From Candidatus Baldrarchaeota archaeon (GTDB lineage Archaea; Asgardarchaeota; Baldrarchaeia; Baldrarchaeales; DXJG01): a DNA stretch of 64,000 bases. A program made the translations under genes and the position numbers. Numbering within the stretch: the first letter of the stretch is position 1; every line of letters begins with the position of its first letter. The stretch covers positions 480,515-544,514 of the forward strand of contig DXJG01000002.1 of assembly GCA_019056805.1 (NCBI GenBank), given 5' to 3'. The notes beneath the pieces were generated by a model. It saw only the letters and a program-made list of their open reading frames with translations, did no database searches and was not told the origin of the DNA. This document shows, one piece after another, positions 3,778 through 42,800 of this stretch.

Positions 3778-4410
3778 TCAAAGTTTTTCCATAACCTTTT
3801 TTACAAGTTCTCTCACAGCTTTTCTCCCGCCTAAAAACAAAGCTAATTCTGCAAGTCTTTCTACATGTCTTTCTAAGACAGGCATTATTATATCTTTTGA
3901 TTGAGTATCTAAGCTTGTTACGAGGTCTATTAATTCGCTTAAGGTATCAAAAACGCTTCTAAACATGTCATAAACATACATAGGAGCGTCTGAAACTCTT
4001 CTCTTCGCAATTAGATTCCCAACATTATAGTAAACTTCTTTAACAACAATTTCAGGAGAAGCACCATTTCCAAGTTTGTTGAGACCGTTCTTTAGGATTT
4101 CCTCTACGGTATTTTGCATTTGCCAAATCTGTTCATTGCTTTTACTTTTGCTCTCAAAAAATACCGCTAACGCATAGTGTTCAACTTCTTTTGTTTTTCC
4201 AAAGAAAATACATGCTATCATACCTAAATCTGGAAAAAGAGTTTGTACACAACCTTCAGCTTCGCTCAAATCTTTTGCACCACTGCTTACCCAAACATCC
4301 AAAGCCATATTCCAAAGTTTCTCTCGAGGGATAAATCCCTCGGGAAACATAGCCTCCGCTATAGGTCCCAGTTTATAATCAAACTTAATAAGAAGTACAC
4401 CTTTGAGCAT
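3778..4410 (-). CDS. longin-like domain protein (family member 1 of 3 in window)
   Basis: The N-terminus MLKGVLLIKFDYKLGPIAEAMFPEGF fits a profilin/longin-like alpha-beta pattern, followed by a helical C-terminal half. It lies 18 nt downstream of the KaiC-like gene on the same strand. It is a paralog of 6189-6839 and 8613-9089. Confidence 0.55.
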   Translation of the reverse strand: MLKGVLLIKFDYKLGPIAEAMFPEGFIPREKLWNMALDVWVSSGAKDLSEAEGCVQTLFPDLGMIACIFFGKTKEVEHYALAVFFESKSKSNEQIWQMQNTVEEILKNGLNKLGNGASPEIVVKEVYYNVGNLIAKRRVSDAPMYVYDMFRSVFDTLSELIDLVTSLDTQSKDIIMPVLERHVERLAELALFLGGRKAVRELVKKVMEKL

Positions 4411-4428
4411 TTATAAGCCACACACCAA

Positions 4429-5835
4429 TTATTCTATCGGAACGAGACGAGTTTCAATATAACCTTTCTCAGTGCTTACGGTCATAACATACATTTCGGT
4501 CCTAGGTATAAGTCCGTAAATTACAGTAGTTCCTTCAATATTTTCCAACTTAAAGTGGGTAGTAGCCATATGGCAAAGCGTTCTAATAAGTTTCTGACCA
4601 TATTTTACTATAGCTAGAACCAAAAGATTTCTAGTCCTTGAAAGTATAGACAACTGACTCAGAAACTTGTAAACAGTTTGAGGATCATATATATGTTCCA
4701 CCGTATCCACACCAATAATAAAAGCCAAGTCCCTGCTACCAACTTTTTCTCTTAATTCATTTACTGCTTTCGAAGCTATTTGATGTGCTTTAGCAACATC
4801 TCCTCTCGGTATTTTTAAAATATAGGGCTTTTCAGCTTCTGCTTCTTCAACCTCTAAAATCCTAACGCACGCATTAAATTTTTCTTCTCCAACAAAGGGA
4901 ATAATCCACTTTTCTAACTCTTCGACAGGTTCTCCTTCACATGGAATAATCATCACTGGTATATTATGTTGGACAAGATTTGCCACAAGAGGGGCTACAA
5001 GCCAAAGATAGTATGGTCCTACTTCTTCTCCGATTTCTAAGAGGTTAAAGCTTCCTCTTCTATAACCTCCAGCCGTTAAATTGTTTAAATCTTCCACTCC
5101 CGTTGAAATTCTCTCCTTACTCGTGATTAAAGGCGGACTGACAACTTTCTCAGGGAAGTAAATTGGTTCATCTCTGAAGTGCGTAAATCTTCCATCTTTT
5201 AAAGTAAAAAGAAATGTAGGTTTCTTAATTTCTTCCCCCCTTATTTTCTCAAATATAATTTTTCTAATAAGTCTCCCTTGGATAATTTCACGAGTTAAAG
5301 TTACGATCCCATCGACTAGATAATCTATAGTTAACGCTTCATATCTTTCTACAACAAATATCACATTAGAATTGGTAGATTCTCCCAATTCTAATAAAGC
5401 TCTTTCTATTCTTAAATTTTCTAATGGAATATCCAAATTAGTTTTTAATGCGTCTAAACTATCGATCACGATTGTAACTGGTCGCTTTTTTGAACTCTCA
5501 ATTTTAGCATATAAAGCTCTTAAGAAATCAGGCTCGTCTGAATATTCAAAAAGTATATATTCTGGAGCTGACACAGGAATCTGGGGTTTTCTAGCATCTA
5601 AAATGTTTTCTTCGGGAATACTATCTTTAATCCAAGGAAACTGCCTTAAAAGTTTCTTGCTTGACACACGTGTAGAAACATAATAGCTTGTTCCATTTAT
5701 TCCCATCTTCTTAATTAATTCCAAAGCTAAAGTTGTTTTTCCCGTACCAGCTAAGCCTTTTATTAATAGAGAAAAACCACCCTTGTTTAAAGCACTAATC
5801 AGTTCTTTTGGCACACCAAAAGAAACACTAACCAT
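4429..5835 (-). CDS. KaiC-like double RecA-fold ATPase (second domain degenerate)
   Basis: The N-terminal Walker A is GLAGTGKTT within MVSVSFGVPKELISALNKGGFSLLIKGLAGTGKTTLALEL, and a Walker B-like IVIDSLD follows. The second RecA-like half (…GGYRRGSFNLLEIGEEVG…) lacks an intact P-loop. Confidence 0.75.
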   Translation of the reverse strand: MVSVSFGVPKELISALNKGGFSLLIKGLAGTGKTTLALELIKKMGINGTSYYVSTRVSSKKLLRQFPWIKDSIPEENILDARKPQIPVSAPEYILFEYSDEPDFLRALYAKIESSKKRPVTIVIDSLDALKTNLDIPLENLRIERALLELGESTNSNVIFVVERYEALTIDYLVDGIVTLTREIIQGRLIRKIIFEKIRGEEIKKPTFLFTLKDGRFTHFRDEPIYFPEKVVSPPLITSKERISTGVEDLNNLTAGGYRRGSFNLLEIGEEVGPYYLWLVAPLVANLVQHNIPVMIIPCEGEPVEELEKWIIPFVGEEKFNACVRILEVEEAEAEKPYILKIPRGDVAKAHQIASKAVNELREKVGSRDLAFIIGVDTVEHIYDPQTVYKFLSQLSILSRTRNLLVLAIVKYGQKLIRTLCHMATTHFKLENIEGTTVIYGLIPRTEMYVMTVSTEKGYIETRLVPIE

Positions 5836-6188
5836 AGATAGTCACCCTTATTCTTGGAAATAAACCGTTTAATTATTTTTTCTTTTAGTTTTATAAAGTC
5901 TTAAATATTTATTGTATTGATAGATTTTAAATTTTCGGTATTTACACCTAACTTCGTAATTTAGACCGTTTAAAGACGAATGACGACTTAAAAACCAGAT
6001 AACCTTCAATGTTTACAAATAATATAATTTCACTTAGCTGGGATTTTAAAAAAGCTAATTCTTCCTTTACAAAGTGTTAGAGGCTTATAGTAAAATTAAT
6101 ATTGGGTTGAAATTAAATGTAGTATCATGTATAATAACATTGTACTTAAAAATCGAGGGGGTTCAAAAGACGTCGTGAGGGAGCTTTC

Positions 6189-6839
6189 GTGTTAAAAGGA
6201 GTCTTACTAGTTCGATTCGATTCAAAACTTGGACCAATACCAGAAGGAATGTTTCCACAAGACTTCATAGACAGAAATAAGATTCCAGAGATAACCATGC
6301 AAATCTGGGCTAATCTTCCTAAAGCTGGTGGCAACGGCTACACCCTAGTTAACTTCAACAAAATAAATTTGTTTGGTTTTCTTCTTTACGATGAAGATGG
6401 CAATCTAGGACCGTACTGTATAGCAAGTTTTTTTGATTCTGATGCTGTGGCCGAAATATGGGGGAGATTTGAAGATATTAAAAAACTAATGGAAATTATA
6501 AATAACAAAATTAAAGAAAAACTACCTGTTCAGGTCGCGTTACAGGAACTCTATGAAAATATCATGAAGATTATTACAAGGCCTATCATAAGTGGAGTTT
6601 TAAAAGACAATGTTTATTCTACTTTTAAAGAGGTTTTTGAAAACTTAGCTTATTTAATATCAACTATAAAAAACATAAAAGATGAAGATATTAAGAAAAA
6701 AATGATCGAGAAAGTAAAAAACTTGTCCGAAAACCTGTTAACATTATCAATATTATGGGGTGGAAGAGAAATAGCAACTCTTCTAATAAAACGGTTATTG
6801 TCATCAACTACTACTCCTAAGGAAAAACTAAAATTTTAA
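6189..6839 (+). CDS. longin-like domain protein (family member 2)
   Basis: A GTG start follows GAGGGAG. The N-terminus MLKGVLLVRFDSKLGPIPEGMFPQDF is near-identical to that of 3778-4410. It is divergently oriented from the KaiC operon. Confidence 0.55.
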   Translation: MLKGVLLVRFDSKLGPIPEGMFPQDFIDRNKIPEITMQIWANLPKAGGNGYTLVNFNKINLFGFLLYDEDGNLGPYCIASFFDSDAVAEIWGRFEDIKKLMEIINNKIKEKLPVQVALQELYENIMKIITRPIISGVLKDNVYSTFKEVFENLAYLISTIKNIKDEDIKKKMIEKVKNLSENLLTLSILWGGREIATLLIKRLLSSTTTPKEKLKF

Positions 6840-6983: not shown

Positions 6984-7481
6984 TTATAATTCGCGGTGTT
7001 CTCTAATAACTGCTTTTAGATTTTTGTAAGTTTCATTTAACGCCTCAGATATAACTTTTGTATTTGCTATTACAGGCATAAAATTGGTATCACCGGTCCA
7101 CCTAGGCACAATATGTACATGTACATGGTCTTCTATTCCAGCACCGGCAACCCTGCCTATATTCACGCCAATATTAAATCCATCAGGCTTCATAACCTTT
7201 CTTATCACTTCTAATGAAAAATTAACAAGCTTAAAAATCTCTAGAAGTTCATCATCATCTAAATTCTCCAAGGAAGGAATATGTCTATAGGGCGCAACCA
7301 TTAAATGCCCATTATTGTAGGGGAAGGCATTCATAATTATGAAAGCCTTTTTACCTCTATAAAGAATAAGATTCTCTTCATCTTTTTTCTCTTTCACCTT
7401 TTGACAAAAAATGCAACCTCGAGGTTTTTTCATTTTAATGTATTTAATTCTCCAAGGAGCCCACAATCTTTCCATATTCAT
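6984..7481 (-). CDS. HIT family hydrolase
   Basis: The histidine triad HVHVHIVPR is present, and an N-terminal CIFC motif. Confidence 0.8.
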
Positions 7482-7575
7482 TCACCTTTAACCATATATT
7501 TAAATGCAAGCTTAAGATTTCTAATAACCCATACGTATGATAAGGATTTGGATCAGTATCTTGGGGTCGAATTAA

Positions 7576-8451
7576 ATGAGCTGGAACATTCTTGTCACAT
7601 GCTTGTTGGCTTTAGGCCTAGGAGTATTGCAGGGCTGCTTAGAATGGATTCCTGTAAGTAGTGAAGCTTTCTTAATGATTTATTTAATAGTTATTTTAAA
7701 ACTTGACCCCCTAACTGCCTTAGCTATCTCTATCTTCCTACACTTCTCTACAATGCTTACAGTTGTTATATATTTTAAAAAGGATTTTATTGGAGCATTA
7801 AAAGTTTTAATCAATATTTTTAATATGGAAAAAAGAAGCAATACAAGGAATAATGCCGTTTTTAAACTTCTTGTAACATCATTTATAGGATCCATTATCT
7901 CTGGTGGCGCCACTTACATGTTTTACACGATTCTCCTTAAAACACTTGAAAAAAGTTTTTTGGAGACTGTTGGTTTATTCATCTTAATTTTAATAGGCAT
8001 TGCGATGGTTTTCACCGGATTTCTAATGAAAAAACAAGCTATAGGGCTTAGAACACTTGAAGAAGCAAATGAAGTCGACGGTTTATTGGGAGGTTTAGCT
8101 CAAGGGTTGGCGGTTATCCCTGGAATTAGTAGATCAGGTATTACACTAGCAACATTTCTTTATAGGAAATTTCAAAAAGAAGACGCCTTAACAATTTCTT
8201 TCCTAATATATGTCTCTGCGGTGATTCTATCCACTTTATACTACCTTTTAGTAAATAATATCATCATTATGATCCAAAGTGTGGGAATTTTCTTCTTTAC
8301 TATCGCATTTGTTTCTACATTTGTTTCTTCTTTAATAACTATGAAAAGTTTTCTCTATGTAGCTAAAAAACTGAGTTTTTCTAGGTTCTTGATTTCTATA
8401 GGTGTTTTAATTTTTGTATTAAATCTTTTTGTCCTTTTTTTGTCGAGATAA
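7576..8451 (+). CDS. uppP: undecaprenyl-diphosphatase (BacA/UppP family)
   Basis: GVLQGCLEWIPVSSEAFLM and PGISRSGITLATFLY match the two BacA signature blocks. The protein is polytopic. Confidence 0.8.
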   Translation: MSWNILVTCLLALGLGVLQGCLEWIPVSSEAFLMIYLIVILKLDPLTALAISIFLHFSTMLTVVIYFKKDFIGALKVLINIFNMEKRSNTRNNAVFKLLVTSFIGSIISGGATYMFYTILLKTLEKSFLETVGLFILILIGIAMVFTGFLMKKQAIGLRTLEEANEVDGLLGGLAQGLAVIPGISRSGITLATFLYRKFQKEDALTISFLIYVSAVILSTLYYLLVNNIIIMIQSVGIFFFTIAFVSTFVSSLITMKSFLYVAKKLSFSRFLISIGVLIFVLNLFVLFLSR

Positions 8452-8612
8452 TAGTAGTGAAAAATTATTTAGGTAACCTTTTCATATTTTTTTAATAGAG
8501 CGATTTAAATTAGCTACATAGTTAGTCTAAAAACACAAACTTTATAACTAATATTGTAGTAACAAATACTGCTACTAAAGAATACCTAAATCTAGAAGTA
8601 ATATTTCTTGAC

Positions 8613-9089
8613 ATGATACCTGTTTCGTTTCATAATGATGTGAAGGGATATGTTATGAAAATCAAAGGAAATTATAACAGCAAACTAAAGGGCATTGTTT
8701 TAGGACGTTTATTACCAACCTTACCAAGTCCGCATTTCATATATCCTAACGATTTTTTAAATACTAAAGAGCTCAGGTACGTTATTATGCAGGCATGGTT
8801 AAACTATGGTAGCACAACATGGACGGATAAACCTGAATTTGTATTTGTACACTATAACTGGCTTAAAATGATAGGATGCGCATACTTTGATAAATCAAAT
8901 CATCTTGGAGAATATACACTTATTTGCATGTTTGATGAAAATGAAGGCGTAAAAGTTTGGAAGTATCTTCCGAAAATTAAAGAGTTCTTGGAAAAGGCTA
9001 GCCAAAAAATACGACACGAACAGAACATGGTCACAATAATAAAAAACTTATACAGGGAACTTTCAGAGAAAATATCACAATTAGAATAA
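8613..9089 (+). CDS. longin-like domain protein (family member 3); true start probably ATG at 8655
   Basis: LKGIVLGRLLPTLPSPHFIYPNDF...W..G...IGCAYFDK...YTLICMFDE...W aligns position-by-position with LKGVLLIKFDYKLGPIAEAMFPEGF...W..G...IACIFFGK...YALAVFFES...W of 3778-4410. It lies immediately upstream of the TrmB-GTPase pair. Confidence 0.45.
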   Translation: MIPVSFHNDVKGYVMKIKGNYNSKLKGIVLGRLLPTLPSPHFIYPNDFLNTKELRYVIMQAWLNYGSTTWTDKPEFVFVHYNWLKMIGCAYFDKSNHLGEYTLICMFDENEGVKVWKYLPKIKEFLEKASQKIRHEQNMVTIIKNLYRELSEKISQLE

Positions 9090-9223
9090 TTTTATTAAAT
9101 GATAAAGCGGTAAGTAAAGTATATTTTAGATTGCTAGTTTTGACAAAACGTTTTCATGTAGTAACATTTATTATTACCATTGTACTAATTTATAGATATA
9201 CTCTATTACAAATAATATGTGGG

Positions 9224-10042
9224 ATGCTAAAATTGCCGTTGCAAGACCTTATTGAAACACTGGAACGATTAGGATTCACAAAAAATGAAGCAAAAGTATA
9301 CTTAACATTAGTTATGACAAGAAATCCCCTCAATGCATCAGAAATTAGCAGGAGATCAGGCGTACCAAGAGCAAACGTCTACGAAACCTTAAATAAACTA
9401 GTGGGGAGAGGATTCGTTTTAAGAGAAGCTGCAGGAAGAGGAGCAAGATACGTAGCAGCATCACCCGACCAGATATTCGAAGCTCTCAGAGAAGAACATA
9501 AAAGATATATTCAACTGGTTGAAGAAGCAAGAAAAACATTTGACCAGCTTATGTCAAAAGTTACAAGACCGTTTCCAGGAGAAGCAGCATGGCTTGTAAG
9601 CGGAGAAACCAGAATCGACAACATTCTTAAAGATATTTTAGATACTGCCACACAAAGATTTACATCCTTAATGACACCCGATATAATTACAAGAAACGGA
9701 GAAGGAATCTTTTCAATGCTGAAGAGGAAGGCAGAGGATGGCGTTGAAATTCTCATTTCACTTAAAATTACAAGTGATATTCTTGATAAAGTTAAGGAAT
9801 TAGCAAATTCCGTGTCAGTTTTTCATTGGCAACTTGGAGAAATCCCCATGGGATGCTACGTTAGTGACGGTTCCCGTTGCTTAATGACCCTCGTCGGAAA
9901 ATGGGCTCCAATATTAACATACGACATAGGTATTTGGACCGAAAACCCGGTCTACGCAAAGTCCTTCGAATATTTAACTGAAAAACTTTTAACATTAAAT
10001 GTACCCTTTAAGAAATATCTTGAGGAGGAAGAAAAGGATTGA
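9224..10042 (+). CDS. TrmB-family winged-HTH transcriptional regulator (start at MLKLPLQDL; ORF track gives 9131)
   Basis: LGFTKNEAKVYLTLVMTRNPLNASEISRRSGVPRANVYETLNKLVGRGFV is a TrmB-type HTH. A TATA-like tttataga element sits about 30 bp upstream of 9224. The C-terminal block GCYVSDGSRCLMTLVGKWAPI is shared with the paralog at 28333. The stop overlaps the GTPase start (ATGA). Confidence 0.7.
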   Translation: MLKLPLQDLIETLERLGFTKNEAKVYLTLVMTRNPLNASEISRRSGVPRANVYETLNKLVGRGFVLREAAGRGARYVAASPDQIFEALREEHKRYIQLVEEARKTFDQLMSKVTRPFPGEAAWLVSGETRIDNILKDILDTATQRFTSLMTPDIITRNGEGIFSMLKRKAEDGVEILISLKITSDILDKVKELANSVSVFHWQLGEIPMGCYVSDGSRCLMTLVGKWAPILTYDIGIWTENPVYAKSFEYLTEKLLTLNVPFKKYLEEEEKD

Positions 10043-10554
10043 GTGGAGAGTACATCCTAAAAGTTGTTGTAGTAGGAGACTTAGCTGTAGGAAAAACAAG
10101 TTTAGTCATTAGATACGCAGAAAACAAGTTTCCAACAAGTTACAAACCGACAATAGGAGCAGACATAATGGTTAAAATGGTGGATCTCAAAGGAAAGAAA
10201 ATTAGACTTGCGATCTGGGATATAGCTGGACATGAAACTTTCCAGAAGATAAGGCGTTACTATTATCAAGGAGCTGCAGGCGCGCTAATACTTTATGATG
10301 TAACAAATCCAGAATCATTTGAACACGTAAAAGATTGGTACGATGATGTAGTCACTCATTGCGGAAAAATACCCATTGTCCTAATTGGAAATAAAATAGA
10401 TTTGAAAGATCAAAGAAAAATAACAACAGAACAAGGTGTGAAAAAAGCTGATGATATGGGTCTAGTAAAATTCATCGAAACAAGTGCAAAAACCGGTACA
10501 AATGTACACAACGCCTTTGTATCAATAATAGAAGAAGTGCTAAAAATATCATAA
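10039..10554 (+). CDS. Ras/Rab-like small GTPase (switch II Gln replaced by His)
   Basis: G1 is GDLAVGKTS, switch I is PTIGAD, G3 is WDIAGHE, G4 is GNKID and G5 is ETSAKTG. There is no C-terminal prenylation Cys. Confidence 0.8.
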   Translation: MSGEYILKVVVVGDLAVGKTSLVIRYAENKFPTSYKPTIGADIMVKMVDLKGKKIRLAIWDIAGHETFQKIRRYYYQGAAGALILYDVTNPESFEHVKDWYDDVVTHCGKIPIVLIGNKIDLKDQRKITTEQGVKKADDMGLVKFIETSAKTGTNVHNAFVSIIEEVLKIS

Positions 10555-10837: not shown

Positions 10838-12187
10838 CTATGTATTCTTCTTAAAATTTGAAAATATGTCGTGAATTTCTTTTCTCCACATTTCAAAGTC
10901 CTCTGGCCCAGGATAGCTTTGATAGAGCTGCTTAACCCTTTTCATAATATTTGCAACTTCCCTAAGTTTCTGTAGAAAAGATAATCTTCTAATTCCCCTG
11001 AAAAATCTAATAGCCCTCTCTGTTATATTTAACCTTAAGTCCTCACCCAAATTCGCCTTTAATATATCTTGTTCCGTAACCAACTTATGTTTCATACCCC
11101 AGTTTAATTCTTCATCACCTAATTTCTGAAGAAACCATCTGAAAATATCCAACGAAGCTTGCTTAGCACCGTATTCCTGCATAAACTTTACATTATAGCT
11201 CCATAACCCCTCCCTACTAAAGTCCTCTTTCTCCAAAGCTTTAACAGCAGTTTCCCCAGCAATTTTACCAGCAATCATCGAAGGACCAATACCACCACCA
11301 TGCACAGGATTCACTTGAAAAGCAGCATCACCAACAAACATAACACCATTTGCAACCAAACAATCCAAAGGTCTTCTCGTTGGAACAGCTCCTCCTCCAC
11401 CATGAACAATTTTTGACCCTTCGAAAATCTCTTGATTTAACACATATTCATAAATCTGCTTCTTAGGGTTTGGCGCATTTGGACCACTCTGAACACCTAG
11501 CCCAACATTAACTATAATCCCATCCTTTTTAGGAAATATCCAATAATACCCACCAGGAGCGATAGCTTGAGATAAGTAAATTTTCGCATAGACAGGAGTT
11601 TCTATCGGTTCTTTCAATTCTCTAATCTCTCTATAAGCAACAATAAGATCTTCTTGCAAAATTTCCTTTTCCACACCAAAATCAGACGGTAATCTCTTAC
11701 GAATAACTCCAGCAACACCACTAGCATCAATAACAATATCCGCTTCTATACTCGTCTTTTCTCCATCGTTTCGAACCACAACCCCCTTTACAAAACGATC
11801 CATAACTATTGGCTCTATTACGGTAGTATTGTCCATTAACTCTGCTCCAGCATCTAACGCTTCCCTAAGCAATCGTTGACCAAAACGATGTCTGTTTACA
11901 CCAAAACCCTCAAGTCTCTCCCCTTTTACCTTAAATACGGTCTCGAGGTCAGGTGAATATATTTCAATACCTTCAAATACGCTTTCTAATTCCTCTCCTT
12001 TTGGATAAGATAAGCCTAAATTGTCAAAATGATGTCTCCCTATAGCATCTCCGCACACTTTGTCTCCTATTTTTTCCTTAGGTTTCCTATCAATTAAAAG
12101 AACTTTCAATCCTCTTCTTGCCGCTTCTCTTGCCGCCATTGTACCGCCTGTACCAGCACCAACAACTACAACATCAAATTTACTCAT
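10838..12187 (-). CDS. geranylgeranyl reductase family FAD-dependent oxidoreductase
   Basis: The FAD dinucleotide fold is DVVVVGAGTGGTMAAREAARRGLKVLLIDRK, and the GGR motif KVCGDAIG is present. Confidence 0.75.
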   Translation of the reverse strand: MSKFDVVVVGAGTGGTMAAREAARRGLKVLLIDRKPKEKIGDKVCGDAIGRHHFDNLGLSYPKGEELESVFEGIEIYSPDLETVFKVKGERLEGFGVNRHRFGQRLLREALDAGAELMDNTTVIEPIVMDRFVKGVVVRNDGEKTSIEADIVIDASGVAGVIRKRLPSDFGVEKEILQEDLIVAYREIRELKEPIETPVYAKIYLSQAIAPGGYYWIFPKKDGIIVNVGLGVQSGPNAPNPKKQIYEYVLNQEIFEGSKIVHGGGGAVPTRRPLDCLVANGVMFVGDAAFQVNPVHGGGIGPSMIAGKIAGETAVKALEKEDFSREGLWSYNVKFMQEYGAKQASLDIFRWFLQKLGDEELNWGMKHKLVTEQDILKANLGEDLRLNITERAIRFFRGIRRLSFLQKLREVANIMKRVKQLYQSYPGPEDFEMWRKEIHDIFSNFKKNT

Positions 12188-27994: not shown

Positions 27995-28332
27995 TTCTTA
28001 TACTCCTCCAACTTCACCTATTCCATTTAAAATTTAAAACTTATTCCATAAATTCATGGTTCTTAGAAAAAATATTGTTTTCCTCTTAATTGTTATTAAT
28101 TGTTTCTCATAAGTATTTCTCTAATAATAGTTATTCATTTCATGGTATCCACTTTTTTAATATTAAAAGCACATGAAATCAAAAACACATATCTAGAATT
28201 TCTTAGTTCTTGAATTCTTAGAAAAGGATTCATAAATGTTTTCATCTTGTTTCGACCTTTTTTGTCGAGTATTATAAATAATAGTAAAATATATTACCAC
28301 ATTAAGATGTAATATTTACTATAACATTTTTC

Positions 28333-29175
28333 ATGATGATCAAAATGAATACATCGCTCCAAAAAAAGCTACTTAAAATACTCGAAGAATTAGGATTTAC
28401 GCAAAATGAAGCCAAAATATACTTAGTTCTATTTTTCTCCGGCGCCCCGCTAAATGCATCCGAAATATCAAATTATTCAAATGTCCCCCGTCCCAATGTT
28501 TATGAAACAATAAATAAACTCATAGAAAAGGGTTTTGTTTTAAAAGAGGCCTCTAGTAGAGGAGGACGATATGTAGCTATTATACCTCAAGAAATGCTAG
28601 ATATGCTACGTAAAAGATATGAACAACGCCTAAAACTAATCGATGAAACAATATTACAGTTTAAGGAAATGCTTAACAGGAGTTTAGGTGAATCTAAACT
28701 CTCAGCCATGAGTACAATAGAATTTATTAACGATGAAGAAAAAATCACTAGAATTATTGGAGAGGTCCTTGAATCTGCTCAATCCAAACTAATTACAATC
28801 ATCACCCCCGATGTCTTAGAGATCGAAGGGAAAAATATTGTTAGAATGCTTAGACGTTTGGCCAAAAGGAATGTGGATATTACCGTGGGAATAAAGACAA
28901 ATGATGATTATAAGTACTATGTTCGTGAACTATCAAAAATCTCTACTTTATATCTCTGGACTTATGGCGAATTACCACTTGGTTGCTATATTGCTGACGA
29001 TACTAACTGCTTAGTTACATTAGTTGGGAAATGGTCACCAATTGTATCCTATAATGTTGGTATTTTTACCGGAAATCCACTATACACAAAATCCTTCGGA
29101 TACTTCGCTCAAAAACTCCTAACATTGACGACACAAGAAATAGAGATAGTTAAAGAAATTCGTAGAAGAAGATAG
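28333..29175 (+). CDS. TrmB-family transcriptional regulator (paralog of 9224-10042)
   Basis: LGFTQNEAKIYLVLFFSGAPLNASEISNYSNVPRPNVYETINKLIEKGFV is the HTH. The C-terminal block GCYIADDTNCLVTLVGKWSPI is shared with the paralog. Confidence 0.7.
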   Translation: MMIKMNTSLQKKLLKILEELGFTQNEAKIYLVLFFSGAPLNASEISNYSNVPRPNVYETINKLIEKGFVLKEASSRGGRYVAIIPQEMLDMLRKRYEQRLKLIDETILQFKEMLNRSLGESKLSAMSTIEFINDEEKITRIIGEVLESAQSKLITIITPDVLEIEGKNIVRMLRRLAKRNVDITVGIKTNDDYKYYVRELSKISTLYLWTYGELPLGCYIADDTNCLVTLVGKWSPIVSYNVGIFTGNPLYTKSFGYFAQKLLTLTTQEIEIVKEIRRRR

Positions 29176-29196: not shown

Positions 29197-29786
29197 TTAT
29201 CTTGTCTTTTTTATCTTCTGCAATCTCAACAATAGCTCTCTGGCTTGGGAGTTTTTTTCGAAGTATTCTCTTACAGGTTTCAAAAATTCTATTAGTGCCT
29301 CTGCCGCGGCATTTTTTAGATCCAATGGGTGAAGTTCACCCTTTAAATATATTTGTTCTAATTCGGGATAACTTTCAACAATTAAATCTCCACCATACTT
29401 TTCGGGTCTATGTATCTCTAATGTAAAATCATCTCGTGCAAATAATAAGTACTTATTTATTTCCATAATCGGATTAAATTCTATATCTTTTGGTGGACAA
29501 TAAGCTTGTTTAATCTTTTTCCTTATATCTTCCGGTGTATCATGAACAAATATACATGTTTCAGGCAGACTTTTACTCATTTTCGTATCTAAAAGAATTT
29601 CTTCTCTTGATTTTCCCGTAACATCCATCCTTCCTACCCCAGCCAAACCTGAGAGAAGAGGTGTATGAACAGCTACCGGCTTTCTTCTACCAAGTTTCGG
29701 TGCAATATCCCTACATAACATGTGGACACTTCTTTGATCCATTCCACCATAAGCTACATCCACATCAAGAAGAAAAACATCTGCTG
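29197..29786 (-). pseudogene. tyrosyl-tRNA synthetase paralog, C-terminal half only; in-frame TAA inside conserved motif, N-terminal half decayed
   Basis: The 188-aa GTG ORF starts GGMDQRSVHMLCRD...KMSKS...NPIMEINKY...RPEKYGGDL...ELHPLDLKNA, closely matching the archaeal TyrRS C-terminal half. The upstream frame continues ...KIFDVLSAR*AADVFLLDVDVAYGGMDQR, which corresponds to the YPxMQ-VDV-GGMDQR region. Further upstream all frames are closed. Confidence 0.5.
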
Positions 29787-29802
29787 CTTAGCGCGCGCTA
29801 AG
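29787..29802. repeat. perfect 16-bp GC-rich palindrome CTTAGCGCGCGCTAAG
   Basis: A conspicuous GC core in AT-rich DNA that supplies TAA in both orientations. It sits at the exact break point of the TyrRS paralog. Confidence 0.9.
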
Positions 29803-30257
29803 AACATCAAAAATCTTACAGTTAAGTCCATTTATCCGCAATATTTTAAAATTCAGGTATTTTTCATATCTTGGGTGGAAGTGATGGTGCTTCAATGTCA
29901 AGAAGATTGCTTCAGAGAAAATATTCAGGACTTACGTAGATTCCTCTTCAGGGCTCTATATAGAAATTAAATTCTAATGTTATCGCGTGGATCTTAAAAA
30001 TTCTTCTTCCTGATATTTCTATTGACCTTTTTGAGCGGAAGATTCCGAATATCACCTTCTGCTCTTAAAATTTAATGCAAGGGTTCTAGAGAACCTTGAT
30101 CTAACAGAAAGAAAACAAAAACTACGTTTCCCATAAGCTAGCCAGATAGTTCCTAGACTTCTATTATGCGAAAATGCTTTAAGTTAAATTTTTCAAAGTT
30201 GTTAAATTAACATGATATTCAGAAAAATAAAAGTTCAATAGAAGGAGGAATATAGAC

Positions 30258-31331
30258 ATGGATGTAGAAGAAAGATTAAATTTGATTAAACGACCACCAA
30301 CAGAAGAAATAATAACAGAAGAGGAGTTAAGAGAGCTTCTAGAAACCACTACCCATCCTAAGCATTACATAGGATTTGAAATTTCCGGTTTATTACACTT
30401 AGGAACTTTAATAATATGTGGTTATAAGATAAATGACTTAGCAGAAGCTGGTGTTGACGTTACAGTTTATCTTGCAGATTGGCATAGTTTTATCAATAAA
30501 AAGCTAGGTGGAAACTGGGAAAACATTCTAAAGGCTGCAAAGTATTATGAGAAAGCTTTTAAATTCTTTTGTCCCAAAGCAAAAATTGTTCTTGGATCAG
30601 AATTATATCATCATAACGATGAGTATTGGAAAGATGTTATAAGATTCTCTTCGCATATAACGTTGGCCAGGAATGTACGTTGCCTAACAATAATGGGAAG
30701 AAGTGAAAAGGAAAAATTAAATTTTGCGCAATATATTTACCCGCCCATGCAAGCTGTGGATATAAAATATCTGGGTGAAGATATACCACATGGTGGGATG
30801 GATCAAAGAAAGGTTCATGTTTTAGCAAGAGAAGTATTTCCAAAACTTGGTTGGAAAAAACCCGTAGCACTTCATCATCATTTGTTAATGGGTTTGGCAG
30901 GACCACCGAGAATAAAAACTAAGGATAAATTAGAGAAAGTAATTGCAATGAAAATGAGTAAAAGCAAACCATGGACATGTATATTTATTCATGACTCTGA
31001 AGAACAAATAAAGAAAAAACTATTAAAAGCATGGTGTCCCGAGAGGCAGGTTGAATTCAACCCTGTATTAGAATTGGTTAAATACATAATTTTTCACGAA
31101 AAAAAGGAGTTCTTAGTTGAGAGGGAAAGTAAACATGGCGGAGATATAGTTTTTTCTTCTTATGAAGAGTTGGAAAAAGAATACATTAAAGGGAATCTCC
31201 ATCCTTTAGATTTGAAACTATCTGTCGCGCGAGAAATCTCAAATATACTAGATCCCATCAGGAAGTATTTTGAAAGACCATCAAATAGGAAATTGTTAAA
31301 CGTTTTTAAAGAAGTTAAAATTATAAGATAG
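30258..31331 (+). CDS. tyrS: tyrosyl-tRNA synthetase (archaeal type), HIGH motif reads HLGT
   Basis: IGFEISGLLHLGTL, YPPMQAVDIKYLGEDIPHGGMDQRKVH and KMSKSKP are present, plus the anticodon-binding C-terminus. Confidence 0.8.
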   Translation: MDVEERLNLIKRPPTEEIITEEELRELLETTTHPKHYIGFEISGLLHLGTLIICGYKINDLAEAGVDVTVYLADWHSFINKKLGGNWENILKAAKYYEKAFKFFCPKAKIVLGSELYHHNDEYWKDVIRFSSHITLARNVRCLTIMGRSEKEKLNFAQYIYPPMQAVDIKYLGEDIPHGGMDQRKVHVLAREVFPKLGWKKPVALHHHLLMGLAGPPRIKTKDKLEKVIAMKMSKSKPWTCIFIHDSEEQIKKKLLKAWCPERQVEFNPVLELVKYIIFHEKKEFLVERESKHGGDIVFSSYEELEKEYIKGNLHPLDLKLSVAREISNILDPIRKYFERPSNRKLLNVFKEVKIIR

Positions 31332-32679
31332 AAACTATATTTTTGATGGTTTTTCCAAAGTCTGTTAATTCCCAACATTCTTGATTATTTTTTCCGCTAA
31401 CTCGTCTAACAATACCGCTTTTTTCCATCGATTTTAGAAGTCGCATAATAAAATAGCCGTTTCTTCTTATGGAATTTTGAAGCTCGAGCGTTGTAAACTT
31501 AGAATTCATAATGTTAAGGTAGCTTAGTACTCTATATTTTCGATGAGATTTTAAAGCATATGCGAGTATATTGAATTGTTTGGAATCCTTAGGAAAGATT
31601 TGCATAATTTCAATTAAGCTGCGCCAGTTCAAGTACGAGGTCAAGATGAAAAGGTTTCTTGCTTTAGATTTTTTAATTTTACCTTTAATGTTCACATGAC
31701 TCAGTATTTTTTCATAATCTTTTATGTACTGTTCATTGCTTTCAAAAATTTGTAATCTCACATTTAAAGAATTGTTTTTGTCTCTATAACAATATACATT
31801 ACCATCTCCAAGTAACAGTCCTTGTAAAAAGAATTTTAGTATGTCCTTATCAGGATTAGATTTTGTTAAATATCTTCTAATTTCATTCATTGCATTATAG
31901 CAAAATTCCGCCAGTAAGGAATTTGTTACCCAAAGTTTAATTGTAAATTCTTTTACTCTTTCTATTTTTCTTGTGAAAATATTTTTGTTTGGAATTCCAA
32001 GTTTGATCAAAAATGACTTTACTTTTTTGACTTGATTAAACTTTGGATTTATTGAGATAGTCGCATTGAATAACGATATATCAATAAAAGTTTTAGATAG
32101 TTGAAGAAAGTCAGAAATGATTGTCAACGACTTATTAGTAAAGCTAAATTCCCTTCCCCTGCGCCGCTTTAGAATGGTTTTTCCCCCTTCCGCTTGTAGA
32201 TAACCCAACAATTTTGCAAAACTCTTCGAAACGTATCTGTTAAACACTATTTCTTTAGGTCTACCTTTAGCTGGATACCACAAAAATATATTATTTTTAT
32301 AACACCTACAACATATAGGAAAACCTGACATAGTTTTTTGGATTAAAAAGTAAAGTAGATCTATAGAATTCCCATTTAACATTTTAGTTGGTTTCTGTGC
32401 AGCTTCCACTTTTTTAATATGCATAGTGATGATTTGACCTTTTTTTAGTTGGAGAGCTTCTCTACACTTTTTGGGAATAATGATTCTCCTTCCCTTGGTG
32501 AAATAAGTAACAAAAAATTTAGTTCCAATATTCGTAGTTATTCCTATCTCCAAAAATCCATTGTTTATCTTATTTTGTATTTGAGCTGGTACCCAAATAC
32601 GATTACCTTTGTATACTAGTTTCAATTTCATACATATTTGTGGTTTTGAATTAATAAAAAGTCCACCATTTTGTATCAA
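31321..32679 (-). CDS. free-standing two-motif LAGLIDADG-family protein with N-terminal AbrB/SpoVT-like repeats and C-terminal winged helix
   Basis: Motif 1 is FAKLLGYLQAEGGK and motif 2 is FLQGLLLGDGNVY, about 105 aa apart. The N-terminus has NRIWVPAQIQ and GRRIIIPKKCREAL (swapped-hairpin-like). The C-terminus has a wHTH (NSIRRNGYFIMRLLKSMEKSGIVRRV). Confidence 0.6.
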   Translation of the reverse strand: MIQNGGLFINSKPQICMKLKLVYKGNRIWVPAQIQNKINNGFLEIGITTNIGTKFFVTYFTKGRRIIIPKKCREALQLKKGQIITMHIKKVEAAQKPTKMLNGNSIDLLYFLIQKTMSGFPICCRCYKNNIFLWYPAKGRPKEIVFNRYVSKSFAKLLGYLQAEGGKTILKRRRGREFSFTNKSLTIISDFLQLSKTFIDISLFNATISINPKFNQVKKVKSFLIKLGIPNKNIFTRKIERVKEFTIKLWVTNSLLAEFCYNAMNEIRRYLTKSNPDKDILKFFLQGLLLGDGNVYCYRDKNNSLNVRLQIFESNEQYIKDYEKILSHVNIKGKIKKSKARNLFILTSYLNWRSLIEIMQIFPKDSKQFNILAYALKSHRKYRVLSYLNIMNSKFTTLELQNSIRRNGYFIMRLLKSMEKSGIVRRVSGKNNQECWELTDFGKTIKNIVSIL

Positions 32680-39246: not shown

Positions 39247-39825
39247 TTACACTGACTGATATTTCCTGATTGCGTATATTAATAATTGTGCTAATTCCTG
39301 AAATGCTGGCTGTACATTTTCACCGGTTTTGGCGGAAGTCTCTATAAAAACTATCGGAACGTCAAATTTTTCCTCTAAATATCTTTTTAGTATTTGTCCT
39401 TCCTCGTTGCTGACCCAGTCACGGCTTGGATCTGGTGGTGTATCTATCTTAGGTCTAAGATCTATTTTATTTCCAACTAAAACTACTGGTACTTTTCCAG
39501 TATTTTTCACTAACTCTTCCATCCAAAAGACTGTATTCTTAAAGGTACTTCTTCTCATTACATCATAAACAAGTAATGCTCCACTTGTGCCTCTATAAAA
39601 GGATTCTCTTACTGCTTTGAAGTGTGGTTGTCCAGCTAAGTCCCATATTTGAAACTTAACCTGAACCTCATCAGATAACTTGATATCCATCACTGCAAAG
39701 TCAGCACCAATAGTCATTATATATGCACTGTCGAAACCTTCGCCCATAAATTTTCGTCTAAGTGCCGTTTTTCCGACACCACCATCGCCAATTAAGACAA
39801 CTTTGAAAAGATAACTGTTTTTCAT
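39247..39825 (-). CDS. Ras/Rab-like small GTPase (tandem copy A)
   Basis: GDGGVGKTA, TIGADF, WDLAGQPHF, GNKIDL and ETSAKTG motifs. GGAGG precedes the ATG. Confidence 0.8.
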   Translation of the reverse strand: MKNSYLFKVVLIGDGGVGKTALRRKFMGEGFDSAYIMTIGADFAVMDIKLSDEVQVKFQIWDLAGQPHFKAVRESFYRGTSGALLVYDVMRRSTFKNTVFWMEELVKNTGKVPVVLVGNKIDLRPKIDTPPDPSRDWVSNEEGQILKRYLEEKFDVPIVFIETSAKTGENVQPAFQELAQLLIYAIRKYQSV

Positions 39826-40010
39826 GACCTATACCTCGCACCCCGTCCTCCAGTAAGGTTGGGGTTAATAAAGTTATTACGATAAAGATTATAAATTTTT
39901 TGATAACGTAAAGCCTCATTTAAACGTAAAATTTGAGGAAATCTAAAAAATAGAACCGTTATTTTGCGAGAGGTTCAATGTTTAAATAAAGACAAAATAA
40001 ATTAAATAAA

Positions 40011-40568
40011 TCATTCTTTAGACATATTTAAAATCAAATCAGCAAGTGTTATGAACGCAGTATTCACATTTTCCCCAGTTTTTGCAGAAGTTTCTATAAA
40101 ATGCACCTTAACTCCAAACTTTTCCTCTATAATCTGTTTTTTCTTAAGGCCTTCCTCAGTAGTAATATGGTTTCCACCTGGAACACGCAAATCTATCTTA
40201 TTACCAACCAAAACTATAGGCACTTTCGTTCCTGCATTCTCAAGAAGTTCAGTTACCCAAAGCTCAACATGATCATAAGTTTCCCTTCTAGTCACATCAT
40301 ATACCAGAAGAGCACCTCGCGATCCTCTGTAGAATCCCTCTCTTACTGCTTTGAAGTGTGGTTGTCCAGCTAAGTCCCATATTTGAAACTTAACCTGAGT
40401 CCCGTCAGATGTCTCAACATTTTTTACAGCAAAGTCAGCACCAATAGTAACTAAATATGATGCTGTAAAACCTTCGCCCATAAAACGTCGTCTCAAGGTT
40501 GTTTTTCCGACACCGCCATCGCCAATTAACACAATCTTAAAGAGATAGACCATCGCACTCAACCTCAA
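40011..40568 (-). CDS. Ras/Rab-like small GTPase (tandem copy B; start possibly MVYLFKIV at 40553)
   Basis: The same G1-G5 set as copy A. It shares a roughly 60-nt identical block with copy A. Confidence 0.8.
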   Translation of the reverse strand: MRLSAMVYLFKIVLIGDGGVGKTTLRRRFMGEGFTASYLVTIGADFAVKNVETSDGTQVKFQIWDLAGQPHFKAVREGFYRGSRGALLVYDVTRRETYDHVELWVTELLENAGTKVPIVLVGNKIDLRVPGGNHITTEEGLKKKQIIEEKFGVKVHFIETSAKTGENVNTAFITLADLILNMSKE

Positions 40569-40894
40569 ATGTAGGATTTAATATTGAGTTATTGAATCTA
40601 GTGTTTCTTAACTCTTACGGTTAAGATTACGTAGGAAAATATAATATTAAATTTTAGGTTCACTTGCCATAGATTGAAGAGCTTAACTTTACGCAATGTT
40701 GAAAGATGATCCGTGTACAAACTAATAATATGTAGTGTTCTTCTGGTTAAATAAACTTTAAAGCATAAAATTAACATGTGAGAAGAGAAGTACAACAAAG
40801 TTAAATGTAATCTTATCTACTGCTTTAGATAATTTAAATCAAAATTATAAATGAATTTAATACTTTAAGCTTTAAATAAAGAGGGAGAAGAATC

Positions 40895-42065: not shown

Positions 42066-42800
42066 TTACTTTGATGAAGCTGTTTTTGATGTACTTTCCA
42101 AAAGGGCTTTCATTAACAATTTTTTTAGGTCTTTTTCTATCTCTGAGAGATCTTTTATAGTATCTATTGCTCTCCAAAATCCTCTAGACTTGTATGAACC
42201 CAATAATCCCTTTTCTGCAAGAATCGGGAAGGTTTCTTTTTCTATATCTCCTTTTTCCGGTAAAAATTCTTCAACTTGTCTCCGTAGTACATATACTCCT
42301 CCATTAATCCAATAAGGTAGCTCTGGTTTTTCTCTAAATCCTCTTATCCTATTGGTTTCATCTACATCAACAATTCCATAGGGACTTTTGAAAGGTACCA
42401 AAAGTATTGTAGCCATGAAGTTAGATTGTTTATGATATTCAAACATTGGTCTCAAATCTATTGTTGTAATTATATCGCCATTAGTTACCACAATATCGTT
42501 CTCGTTGTCATCAATATACTTTAAGGCTTGTTTTATACCTCCTCCAGTTCCAAGTTTTTCTTTTTCAATTGAATATTGTATGTTCACATCAAATTTTTCC
42601 CCATTTCCAAAATAATCCATTATTTTTTCATGTTTATACCCGCATGCAATAATAAAATTCCTGATTCCCTGAGATTTTAACCACTCTATTTGATATTCTA
42701 AAATAGGCTTTCTCAAGATTTCAACCATCGGTTTCGGTTTCCGGTTGGTTAGAGGCCTTAAACGGAGACCCAACCCCCCGGCCAATATAATCGCATACAT
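42066..42800 (-). CDS. sugar-phosphate nucleotidyltransferase
   Basis: The NTP_transferase fold is MYAIILAGGLGLRLRPLTNRKPKPMVEI. Confidence 0.75.
   Translation of the reverse strand: MYAIILAGGLGLRLRPLTNRKPKPMVEILRKPILEYQIEWLKSQGIRNFIIACGYKHEKIMDYFGNGEKFDVNIQYSIEKEKLGTGGGIKQALKYIDDNENDIVVTNGDIITTIDLRPMFEYHKQSNFMATILLVPFKSPYGIVDVDETNRIRGFREKPELPYWINGGVYVLRRQVEEFLPEKGDIEKETFPILAEKGLLGSYKSRGFWRAIDTIKDLSEIEKDLKKLLMKALLESTSKTASSK

What the first reader, a model, noticed from the sequence alone, without database searches (positions are those of the whole stretch)
8613..10554. Three-gene module: longin-like protein - TrmB-family regulator - Rab/Ras-like GTPase, translationally coupled
The TrmB-like gene ends with its stop overlapping the GTPase start (ATGA), so the regulator and GTPase are almost certainly co-translated. 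The third member of the window's longin-like family sits 40 bp upstream on the same strand. In eukaryotes longin-fold proteins (Mon1/Ccz1, DENN, TRAPP) act as GEFs or GAP platforms for Rab GTPases. A small GTPase genetically welded to a DNA-binding regulator suggests a GTPase-controlled transcription switch, which to my knowledge is not a described system. A second TrmB paralog at 28333-29175 lacks the GTPase partner.
Basis: partly seen in the sequence, partly recalled or inferred. Interest (0 to 1): 0.78.

Follow-up and report, generated by a model that had tools for sequence, protein, structure and literature searches.

The report
Asgard regulator–Rab-like GTPase operon
In several classes of Asgard archaea, a DNA-binding regulator and a Rab-like GTPase are kept as an adjacent, usually overlapping gene pair behind a conserved operator, which suggests one archaeal small-GTPase family is wired to transcription and can be tested for this.

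Summary
The three genes are real, but the details need correcting. The longin-like gene most likely starts at 8655, not 8613. The TrmB-like gene starts at 9224, so the gap upstream is 134 nt with its own promoter, not 40 nt. The regulator/GTPase overlap is TTGA, not ATGA.

The core claim holds strongly. The regulator is followed by an orthologous Rab-like GTPase in every locus that could be assessed. These come from Baldr-, Jord-/Frey-, Prometh-/Hod- and Odinarchaeial genomes and from two unnamed lineages. Flanking genes differ completely between lineages. None of 61 other TrmB-family loci has a GTPase.

A palindrome, GTAGT-Nx-ACTAC, sits in the regulator's promoter in every clade, which implies autoregulation.

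So this is a conserved two-gene system with a clade-specific longin regulon member, not a three-gene operon. A GTPase-controlled transcription switch is the best reading but remains inferred. I found no description of it in the searchable literature.

The parts
8540..8548 (+). TATA-like box (CTTTATAAC) of the longin-like gene's own promoter
   Evidence: Conserved block in an alignment of 8 relatives while the flanks diverge. Coordinates.
8556..8575 (.). Operator-like palindrome GTAGTAACAAATACTGCTAC (GTAGT-N10-GCTAC), between the TATA box and the start codon, over the predicted transcription start
   Evidence: One mismatch to GTAGT-N10-ACTAC. Relatives L007, L009, L037 and L038 have the exact motif at this place. 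The window holds 6 matches with up to one mismatch against 1.22 expected, and 0 of 100 shuffles reach 6.
8655..9089 (+).
9158..9177 (.). Operator-like palindrome GTAGTAACATTTATTATTAC (GTAGT-N10-ATTAC), 11 nt upstream of the TATA box of the TrmB-like gene
   Evidence: Conserved in the window's clade. The same half-sites lie upstream of orthologs in every clade and of bacterial relatives. Enrichment.
9189..9198 (+). TATA box TTTATAGATA; predicts a nearly leaderless transcript starting about 9218-9224
   Evidence: Conserved in the window's clade. Coordinates. The spacing argument is inference from general archaeal promoter architecture.
9224..10042 (+). TrmB-family regulator with TrmBL2-like architecture, 272 aa: winged helix, long helix, divergent PLD-like C-terminal domain; no sugar-binding subdomain
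   Evidence: Pfam TrmB 3e-22. Profile against PDB: TrmBL2 5bpd 1.4e-17, TrmB 3qph 8e-16. Foldseek TrmBL2 8.6e-11 over about 270 columns. Only 15 cluster representatives of the C-domain in 1.84e9 proteins; one of them co-hits PF11495 positions 2-132.
10022..10029 (+). Shine-Dalgarno-like GAGGAGGA inside the end of the regulator gene, 9 nt before the GTPase TTG start
   Evidence: Read from the sequence. Conserved in L008 and L009.
10039..10554 (+). Rab-like small GTPase, 171 aa. TTG start overlaps the regulator's TGA stop (TTGA). P-loop GDLAVGKT, G3 WDIAGHE (His at the catalytic Gln position), no C-terminal Cys
   Evidence: Pfam Ras 8.5e-60. Best PDB hits Rab2B 2.3e-43, Rab8A, Rab35, Thorarchaeota Rab 8.5e-39. 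Orthologs lie downstream of the regulator in all assessable loci. They form their own clade against the window's other Rab-likes.
28333..29175 (+). Context: GTPase-less paralog of the regulator (42% identity), Baldrarchaeial duplication
   Evidence: Orthologs L011 and L042-L046 also lack a GTPase. It differs at 8 C-domain positions that are invariant in the GTPase-linked orthologs.
3781..6839 (.). Context: two longer paralogs of the longin-fold protein (3781-4410 minus strand, 6189-6839 plus strand) flanking a GvpD/KaiC-like ATPase (4429-5835 minus strand)
   Evidence: The ATPase-longin adjacency recurs in L007 and in the distant homolog's locus L116.

Best explanation
The window comes from a Baldrarchaeia-like Asgard archaeon. 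Positions 9158-10554 are a vertically inherited, autoregulated two-gene operon.

The first gene encodes a dimeric TrmBL2-architecture transcription factor. It binds a GTAGT-N10-ACTAC-type palindrome in its own promoter. The second gene encodes a dedicated Rab-like GTPase, translated by coupling from a weak TTG start that overlaps the regulator's stop.

The most likely working principle is that the two proteins form a complex. The GTPase replaces the sugar ligand of classical TrmB. Its nucleotide state is read by the regulator's unusually conserved C-terminal PLD-like domain and changes operator occupancy. The output is autoregulation of the operon and, in this clade, repression or derepression of the longin gene at 8655, whose promoter carries the same operator over its predicted transcription start. 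The longin-fold protein is then a regulon member and a candidate regulator of the GTPase.

Shown: gene content, overlap, conservation of the pair, the conserved operator, and the folds. Inferred: the physical interaction, the direction of control, and any GAP or GEF role of the longin protein. The confidence given (0.5) is for the whole statement including the inferred complex; the part that is shown (a conserved autoregulated regulator-GTPase operon) I hold at about 0.9.
For: Pair conservation:
- 14 of 14 assessable GTDB species-representative loci have the GTPase downstream.
- 13 of 13 assessable metagenome loci do too.
- So do L001-L006, L120, L123 and L124.
- These carry Baldr-, Jord-, Frey-, Prometh-, Hod- and Odinarchaeial labels.

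No other synteny: flanks are TyrRS/TrpRS-type and V4R genes; eRF1 and a class-I aaRS; TFB, SUI1 and a transglutaminase; or Zn-ribbon, cyclase and ILVD genes.

Specificity: 0 of 61 other TrmB-family loci have any GTPase.

Junctions: TTGA, ATGA, stop followed at once by TTG, or 7-10 nt gaps in most clades.

Co-inheritance: the partner GTPases form their own clade, whose branching mirrors the regulator's.

Operator:
- The exact GTAGT-N(1-10)-ACTAC motif occurs in 353 kb of Asgard loci only in promoters of the regulator or of the longin gene.
- Chance expectation is 0.23 per 64 kb.
- Bacterial relatives that share the recognition helix VPRxNVY carry the exact N10 version just upstream of their own gene.

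Signs of a protein partner:
- C-domain block 196-258 has 25 of 63 invariant columns, against 21 of 80 in the winged helix.
- 8 of the 9 positions that are invariant in GTPase-linked orthologs but changed in the GTPase-less paralogs lie in the C-domain.
- The regulator lacks TrmB's sugar-binding subdomain.
- The partner P-loop has bulky residues at the Ras G12/G13 positions, and His or Ser replaces the catalytic Gln in two lineages. This suggests non-canonical cycling.
Against: - There is no direct evidence of a regulator-GTPase contact. Only single-chain structure prediction was available, so no complex was modelled, and no fusion of the two domains turned up among the C-domain's relatives.
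- The AF2 model of the C-domain is poor (pLDDT below 50 for residues 204-246).
- In Jord-/Freyarchaeia the two genes are 60-240 nt apart, so translational coupling is not universal.
- GTPase-less paralogs keep most of the C-domain, so that domain can work without this GTPase.
- Operator spacing differs between clades (3, 5, 6, 7 or 10 nt). The window's own two sites each have one mismatch.
- An autoregulated operon of a regulator plus its target gene is a common arrangement that needs no protein-protein signalling.
- Distribution in Thor-, Hel- and most Heimdallarchaeia could not be assessed, because the genome scan used exact peptide patterns.
Confidence: 0.5

Rival explanations
1. Plain local regulation. 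The TrmB-like protein is an ordinary autoregulator whose job is only to set the expression of the GTPase gene, and of the longin gene in this clade. The GTPase acts elsewhere, for example at the membrane or cytoskeleton, and never touches the regulator. The signal sensed by the regulator's C-domain is an unknown small molecule.
For: Regulator-plus-target operons with an operator in the promoter are the commonest prokaryotic arrangement (general knowledge). The operator is conserved. The C-domain is homologous to the ligand-binding region of TrmB. GTPase-less paralogs keep the domain. The Jord/Frey pairs have intergenic gaps that could hold a second promoter.
Against: The adjacency holds in every assessable locus, with stop-start overlap in most clades and weak TTG starts. 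That pattern is typical of subunits made in fixed ratio. The C-domain is more conserved than the DNA-binding domain, and its subfamily-specific residues are lost exactly where the GTPase is lost. There is no sugar-binding subdomain.
Confidence: 0.3
2. The longin protein is the GEF or GAP of this Rab-like GTPase, and the three genes form one functional module that controls transcription. This would be an archaeal analogue of FLCN/FNIP acting on Rag GTPases acting on TFEB.
For: The longin fold is closest to FLCN, FNIP, NPRL, C9orf72 and DENN. The same operator lies in the longin promoter and in the regulator promoter, and is conserved in 8 relatives. A weaker, conserved GTAGTA-containing block lies upstream of the paralog at 6189.
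Against: The longin gene is beside the pair only in the window's close relatives. It is absent there in Baldrarchaeum yapensis and in the Jord, Frey, Odin and Prometh/Hod loci. It has its own promoter and a 134-nt spacer. The wider family's recurrent neighbour is a KaiC/GvpD-like ATPase. The 8655 protein lacks the Gly of the 'GP' motif that marks GAP-type longins in PMC12290439, and the family has no invariant Arg.
Confidence: 0.2
3. Chance or selfish adjacency. The pair is a mobile cassette, such as a toxin-antitoxin-like or defence module with a DNA-binding antitoxin followed by an NTPase toxin, or simply neighbours by accident.
For: The layout (a small DNA-binding autoregulator overlapping a downstream gene) superficially resembles type II toxin-antitoxin operons (general knowledge).
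Against: The trees of both genes track each other and the organismal groups. Neighbours are housekeeping genes, with no mobile-element genes beside the pair. The GTPase keeps intact G1-G5 motifs of Rab type. The association holds in every assessable ortholog.
Confidence: 0.03

Closest known systems
TrmB / TrmBL1 / TrmBL2 of Thermococcales (PDB 3QPH, 5BPD/5BOX)
   Same: N-terminal winged helix (PF01978), long dimerisation helix and an alpha/beta domain that follows. Overall length and architecture match TrmBL2 (about 264 aa). It uses a palindromic operator, as do TrmB and TrmBL1.
   Different: No sugar-binding C-terminal subdomain. The C-domain is a very narrow, highly conserved subfamily (15 cluster representatives in 1.84e9 proteins). 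The operator is GTAGT-Nx-ACTAC rather than the Thermococcales TATCAC-N5-GTGATA motif (the latter from my own knowledge). It is always paired with a Rab-like GTPase gene. TrmBL2 is an abundant, non-specific chromatin protein, whereas this protein shows signs of sequence-specific autoregulation.
Asgard Rab-like GTPases (e.g. Thorarchaeota Rab, PDB 7EZB; Tran et al. 2024, PMC10933270)
   Same: Rab-type G domain. No prenylation motif. Comparable similarity to eukaryotic Rab1, Rab2, Rab8 and Rab35.
   Different: [quoted passage not shown] This GTPase family has a fixed genomic partner, and that partner is a transcription factor. Its P-loop has bulky residues at the G12/G13 positions, and the window's copy has His for the catalytic Gln.
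Asgard LAMTOR1-like / Rab-like GTPase / DENN operon (Liu et al., bioRxiv 10.1101/2020.10.19.343400)
   Same: A conserved Asgard gene neighbourhood built around a Rab-like GTPase, with a longin/DENN-class protein implicated.
   Different: Different partners. Here the constant partner is a TrmB-family DNA-binding protein, no roadblock or DENN gene is in the pair, and the longin protein is clade-specific and separately transcribed.
FLCN:FNIP - RagC/D - TFEB/TFE3 axis of eukaryotes
   Same: Works like it, if the model is right: a FLCN/FNIP-class longin protein, a small GTPase and a transcription factor whose activity depends on the GTPase state.
   Different: No homology of the transcription factor. 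The GTPase is Rab-like, not Rag-like. No lysosome or mTORC1. The interaction is unproven. Resemblance only, not membership.
CodY (GTP-sensing repressor) and partner-controlled regulators such as PipX-NtcA
   Same: Guanine-nucleotide status or a small partner protein is coupled to a DNA-binding regulator.
   Different: CodY binds GTP itself. Here a separate Ras-superfamily GTPase would be the nucleotide-binding subunit.
MglA/MglB (small GTPase with roadblock GAP operon)
   Same: A prokaryotic small Ras-like GTPase encoded next to its protein partner.
   Different: The partner there is a roadblock GAP, and the output is cell polarity rather than transcription. The GTPase subfamily is also different.

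Membership tests
TrmB family transcription regulators | N-terminal TrmB-type winged helix-turn-helix (PF01978) | tested here: met
   E 3e-22, 78.7 bits against a cutoff of 25.6, full-length domain match.
TrmB family transcription regulators | Long helix plus following alpha/beta domain, as in TrmB and TrmBL2 structures | tested here: met
   Profile A4 against PDB: TrmBL2 1.4e-17 over residues 8-178, TrmB 8e-16. Foldseek aligns about 270 columns to TrmBL2, E 8.6e-11. A relative of the C-domain co-hits PF11495 positions 2-132. The AF2 confidence of the C-domain itself is low.
TrmB family transcription regulators | Sugar-binding C-terminal subdomain of the effector-binding domain (classical TrmB/TrmBL1) | tested here: not met
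   The protein ends at residue 272. No PF11495 hit for the window protein. The length equals that of TrmBL2, which also lacks this subdomain.
TrmB family transcription regulators | Sequence-specific binding to a palindromic operator | tested here: inconclusive
   A conserved palindrome lies in the promoter in all clades and in bacterial relatives. Binding itself was not tested.
Rab-type small GTPase (Ras superfamily) | G1-G5 nucleotide-binding motifs and best similarity to Rabs | tested here: met
   GDLAVGKT, PTIG, WDIAGHE, NKID, ETSAK. Pfam Ras 8.5e-60. Top PDB hits are all Rabs.
Rab-type small GTPase (Ras superfamily) | C-terminal Cys prenylation motif | tested here: not met
   The C-terminus is ...EEVLKIS. 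No partner ortholog ends in Cys.
Rab-type small GTPase (Ras superfamily) | Catalytic Gln in DxxGQ and small residues at the Ras G12/G13 positions | tested here: not met
   The window and other Baldr copies have DIAGH. L120 has DIAGS. The other clades keep Q. The P-loop is GD[LEA][ARNEK]VGKT, against GDGGVGKT in the window's two other Rab-likes.
Longin domain | beta-beta-alpha-beta-beta-beta-alpha-alpha topology without an N-terminal helix | tested here: met
   AF2 model with pLDDT 85.8; elements E11-19, E24-30, H37-51, E61-67, E72-81, E85-94, then helices.
Longin domain | Significant structural match to solved longin domains | tested here: met
GAP-type longins (FLCN/NPRL2/SMCR8 class; PMC12290439) | 'GP' motif just before strand beta-2 | tested here: not met
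   The 8655 protein has TL-PSP: the Pro is kept and the Gly is absent. The longer paralogs (6189, 3781) and all homologs of about 210 aa have KLGP or RLGP.
GAP-type longins (FLCN/NPRL2/SMCR8 class; PMC12290439) | Catalytic arginine finger | tested here: inconclusive
   The 22-sequence family alignment has no invariant Arg. The structurally equivalent position was not mapped.
Translationally coupled operon | Stop-start overlap or near-abutment with an upstream ribosome-binding site, conserved in relatives | tested here: met
   TTGA in the window, with GAGGAGGA 9 nt upstream. ATGA in L017 and L019. Stop followed at once by TTG in the Odin loci. A 60-240 nt gap only in Jord/Frey.
Translationally coupled operon | Single transcript spanning both genes | not testable with these tools
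   Needs RT-PCR or RNA-seq.

The most novel reading that the evidence does not exclude
One ancient Rab-like GTPase family, present in several Asgard classes, may have as its primary effector a sequence-specific transcription factor encoded in the same operon. That would be a small-GTPase-to-transcription signalling device in a prokaryote. In Baldrarchaeia it would be further wired to FLCN/FNIP-class longin proteins, prefiguring the eukaryotic longin-GAP, Rag and TFEB logic. It would suggest that some Rab-like GTPases served gene regulation before, or alongside, membrane traffic.
Probability: 0.35. Interest if true: 0.88.

Novelty: new variant of a known kind. Interest (0 to 1): 0.72.

Why it matters
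Asgard genomes encode dozens of eukaryote-like small GTPases. Almost nothing links any of them to a partner or a function. Published work notes that genome layout rarely helps (PMC10933270) and that most eukaryotic signature genes lack conserved neighbourhoods (bioRxiv 10.1101/2020.10.19.343400).

This pair gives a fixed partner (a DNA-binding protein), a predicted DNA target and, in one clade, a candidate longin regulator. All of these can be tested with recombinant proteins, and the organism does not need to be cultured.

If the GTPase does gate the regulator, it is the first prokaryotic case of Ras-superfamily control of a transcription factor. It would then bear on what small GTPases did before endomembranes existed.

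Tried and rejected
2. A single-sequence homolog search for the longin ORF gave only 4 close hits. A profile search widened this to 19 clusters, still a tiny family.
3. AF2 of the regulator from a 5-sequence alignment gave a poor C-domain, so nothing is claimed from its detailed structure.
4. The exact GTAGT-N1-10-ACTAC pattern has 0 matches in the window. The window's own sites each carry one mismatch, so the motif was established from other clades and relatives and then scored allowing one mismatch. At two mismatches the enrichment is weak (30 against 19.6), so the extra candidate sites at 6119 and 28281 are only leads.
5. hhalign of the 346-aa gene that follows the pair in L120 against the longin family found nothing.
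6. Literature searches for TrmB combined with GTPase or Asgard terms returned no relevant paper.
7. The afdb50 fold library was unavailable.
8. The toxin-antitoxin and mobile-cassette reading was rejected on vertical inheritance and housekeeping neighbours.
They serve only to root the tree.
10. L017 and L018 (labelled Promethearchaeota) and L019 (labelled Hodarchaeota) are very close to each other, so I count them as one lineage.
Full report
**What is in the window**

The window is AT-rich (33-38% GC). Its closest relatives are Baldrarchaeota MAGs: the regulator is 92-93% identical to those of isolate Yap30.bin4.67 and an uncultured archaeon.

Three same-strand ORFs lie at 8613-10554.
- The first has no Pfam hit.
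- The second has a TrmB winged helix (3e-22).
- The third is Ras-family (8.5e-60).

Flanking genes are BacA/UppP (7576-8451) and a geranylgeranyl-reductase-like gene (10838-12187, minus strand).

**Corrected anatomy**

- The regulator's stop is TGA at 10040-10042. The GTPase starts at TTG 10039, so the overlap is TTGA, not ATGA. A GAGGAGGA run lies at 10022-10029.
- The regulator starts at ATG 9224. Homologs start there, and in L008 the stop-to-stop frame opens two codons before it.
- The spacer to the upstream gene is therefore 134 nt. It carries a TATA box (9189-9198) that predicts a nearly leaderless mRNA.
- The upstream gene most likely starts at ATG 8655 (144 aa). This matches homologs P0004-P0006, and a conserved AAGGGAT precedes it.

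**The pair is conserved; the triplet is not**

- A 54%-identical regulator from Ca. Baldrarchaeum is followed by an overlapping 175-aa Ras-family gene. Its upstream neighbour is a class-Ib aminoacyl-tRNA synthetase, not a longin gene.
- A scan of one genome per GTDB species found 16 Asgard loci with full-length relatives. Fourteen of the 14 assessable orthologs have a Rab-like GTPase (44-92% identical to the window's) directly downstream. Of the other two, one contig ends too early and one locus is the ortholog of the window's second paralog.
- A metagenome scan added 13 of 13 assessable orthologs. Some duplicate the genome contigs. Five paralog loci had no GTPase, and none of 61 loci of other TrmB-family proteins had any GTPase.
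- More divergent regulators reached through their C-domain also carry the GTPase: L120 (33% identity, 8-nt overlap), L123 and L124. Relatives at 28% identity or less do not.
- Flanking genes share nothing between lineages.
- Junctions are TTGA (Baldr), ATGA (Prometh/Hod), stop followed at once by TTG (Odin), a 7-10 nt gap (L018, L124), or a 60-240 nt gap (Jord/Frey).
- In a small neighbour-joining tree the partner GTPases form a clade apart from the window's other two Rab-likes (39250-40577). The branching mirrors that of the regulator.

**The regulator**

- A profile of 18 Asgard members matches TrmBL2 (1.4e-17) and TrmB (8e-16) over the winged helix, the long helix and the start of the next domain.
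- The AF2 model aligns end to end with TrmBL2 (Foldseek 8.6e-11). Its C-domain is poorly predicted.
- The C-domain alone finds only 15 cluster representatives among 1.84 billion proteins. One of them co-hits the N-terminal half of Pfam Regulator_TrmB. So it is a narrow, divergent version of TrmB's PLD-like subdomain, and there is no sugar-binding subdomain.
- Block 196-258 is the best-conserved part of the protein: 25 of 63 columns are invariant, against 21 of 80 in the winged helix.
- Eight of the nine positions that are invariant in GTPase-linked orthologs but changed in the GTPase-less paralogs lie in the C-domain.

**A conserved operator**

Upstream of the regulator gene every clade has a GTAGT...ACTAC palindrome:

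| Clade | Sequence |
|---|---|
| Window's clade | GTAGTAACATTTATTAT[TC]AC |
| B. yapensis | GTAGT-N7-ACTAC |
| Jord/Frey | GTAGTAGCCTACTAC |
| Odin | GTAGT-N3-ACTAC |
| Prometh/Hod | GTAGT-N6-ACTAG |

- In 353 kb of Asgard loci the exact motif occurs only in promoters of the regulator or of the longin gene. Chance expectation is 0.23 per 64 kb.
- Bacterial TrmB-like genes that share the recognition helix VPRxNVY carry the exact GTAGT-N10-ACTAC 20-60 nt upstream of themselves. This ties the half-site to this winged-helix subtype.
- In the window, matches with up to one mismatch number 6 against 1.22 expected, and 0 of 100 shuffles reach 6.
- Two of the six matches are the sites at 9158 and 8556. 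The 9158 site lies just upstream of the regulator's BRE/TATA. The 8556 site lies between the longin gene's TATA box and its start codon, over the predicted transcription start.
- The 8556 site sits in a footprint conserved in eight relatives, four of which have the perfect motif.
- This supports autoregulation and, in this clade, control of the longin gene.

**The longin-like protein**

- With a 22-sequence alignment AF2 gives pLDDT 85.8 and pTM 0.84, with longin topology.
- The family is tiny: 19 clusters.
- The paralogs of about 210 aa carry the 'GP' motif that PMC12290439 reports as specific to GAP-type longins. The 144-aa protein lacks the Gly.
- The recurrent neighbour of the family is a KaiC/GvpD-like ATPase, both in the window and in a distant homolog's locus.

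**Interpretation**

- Shown: a vertically inherited, autoregulated regulator-GTPase pair found in several Asgard classes, and in this clade a co-regulated longin gene.
- Inferred: that the GTPase is the protein 'ligand' of the regulator's C-domain.
- The main rival is simple local regulation of the GTPase gene.

**Literature**

Full-text searches for TrmB with GTPase or Asgard terms, and reading of the main Asgard GTPase papers, found no description of this pair.

Noticed in passing
L024, L027, L029, L030, L031, L034, L080, L083, L097, L099 (bacterial TrmB-like loci): Chloroflexota, Eremiobacterota and other bacterial TrmB-like genes that share the recognition helix S-x-VPR-x-NVY have an exact GTAGT-N10-ACTAC palindrome 20-60 nt upstream of their own start. 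L027 has three copies. This looks like a cross-domain conserved operator for this winged-helix subtype.
   Followed up: partly
window 3781-5835 (minus strand) and L116:3573-5618: A longin-fold paralog of about 210 aa lies directly downstream of a 466-468-aa GvpD/KaiC-like ATPase, both in the window (also L007) and in a distant homolog's locus. This is a conserved longin-ATPase pair of unknown function.
   Followed up: partly
window 6119-6138: GTAGTATCATGTATAATAAC lies 50-70 nt upstream of the longin paralog at 6189. It sits in a block conserved in L007 and L009 (ATGTAGTA-N5-TATAATAACAT). It may be a third, weaker operator in the divergent promoter shared with the ATPase operon.
   Followed up: partly
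window 28281-28325: Upstream of the GTPase-less regulator paralog lies a larger inverted repeat, ATAGTAAAATATATTAC ... GTAATATTTACTAT. It is conserved in L011, which suggests its own, different operator arrangement.
   Followed up: no
window 63491-63510 and 42919-42938: Two further intergenic one-mismatch operator matches: ATAGTAATATTTATAACTAC just after a KaiC-family gene (62625-63374), and GTAATTTCTTTAGTTACTAC about 120 nt upstream of an NTP-transferase gene (42066-42800, minus strand). They are candidate regulon members.
   Followed up: no
window 39250-40577 (minus strand): Two tandem Rab-like GTPase genes (193 and 188 aa, 63% identical to each other) with the canonical GDGGVGKT and WDLAGQP motifs. 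They are not orthologous to the regulator-linked GTPase.
   Followed up: partly
window 29197-32679: Next to the regulator paralog are a C-terminal-half-only tRNA-synt_1b ORF (29197-29763, minus strand), a full-length tRNA-synt_1b gene (30258-31331) and a 452-aa LAGLIDADG-containing ORF (31321-32679, minus strand). In B. yapensis a tRNA-synt_1b gene precedes the regulator-GTPase pair. This may be a remnant of an ancestral arrangement, or a disrupted or intein-related gene.
   Followed up: no
L120:4325-6043: In the most divergent lineage with the pair, two unannotated genes follow the GTPase with 3-4 nt gaps. One is a 346-aa protein whose N-terminus (LIKGLIITSNTGVCLFYKSYG) looks longin-like by eye but has no Pfam or hhalign support. 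The other is a 224-aa multi-pass membrane protein.
   Followed up: partly
L001:39-3514 and 7373-8505: In Ca. Baldrarchaeum the pair sits between two tandem Arf-like GTPase / Roadblock / small-protein triplets and two convergent V4R-domain genes (V4R is the TRAPPC3-related fold). This is a local concentration of GTPase-signalling genes.
   Followed up: no
L017:6456-10007, L018:6461-10012, L121:1-2830: A giant transglutaminase-core protein (1184-1526 aa) follows the pair in the Prometh/Hod loci. It also neighbours a distant GTPase-less regulator relative (P0032).
   Followed up: no
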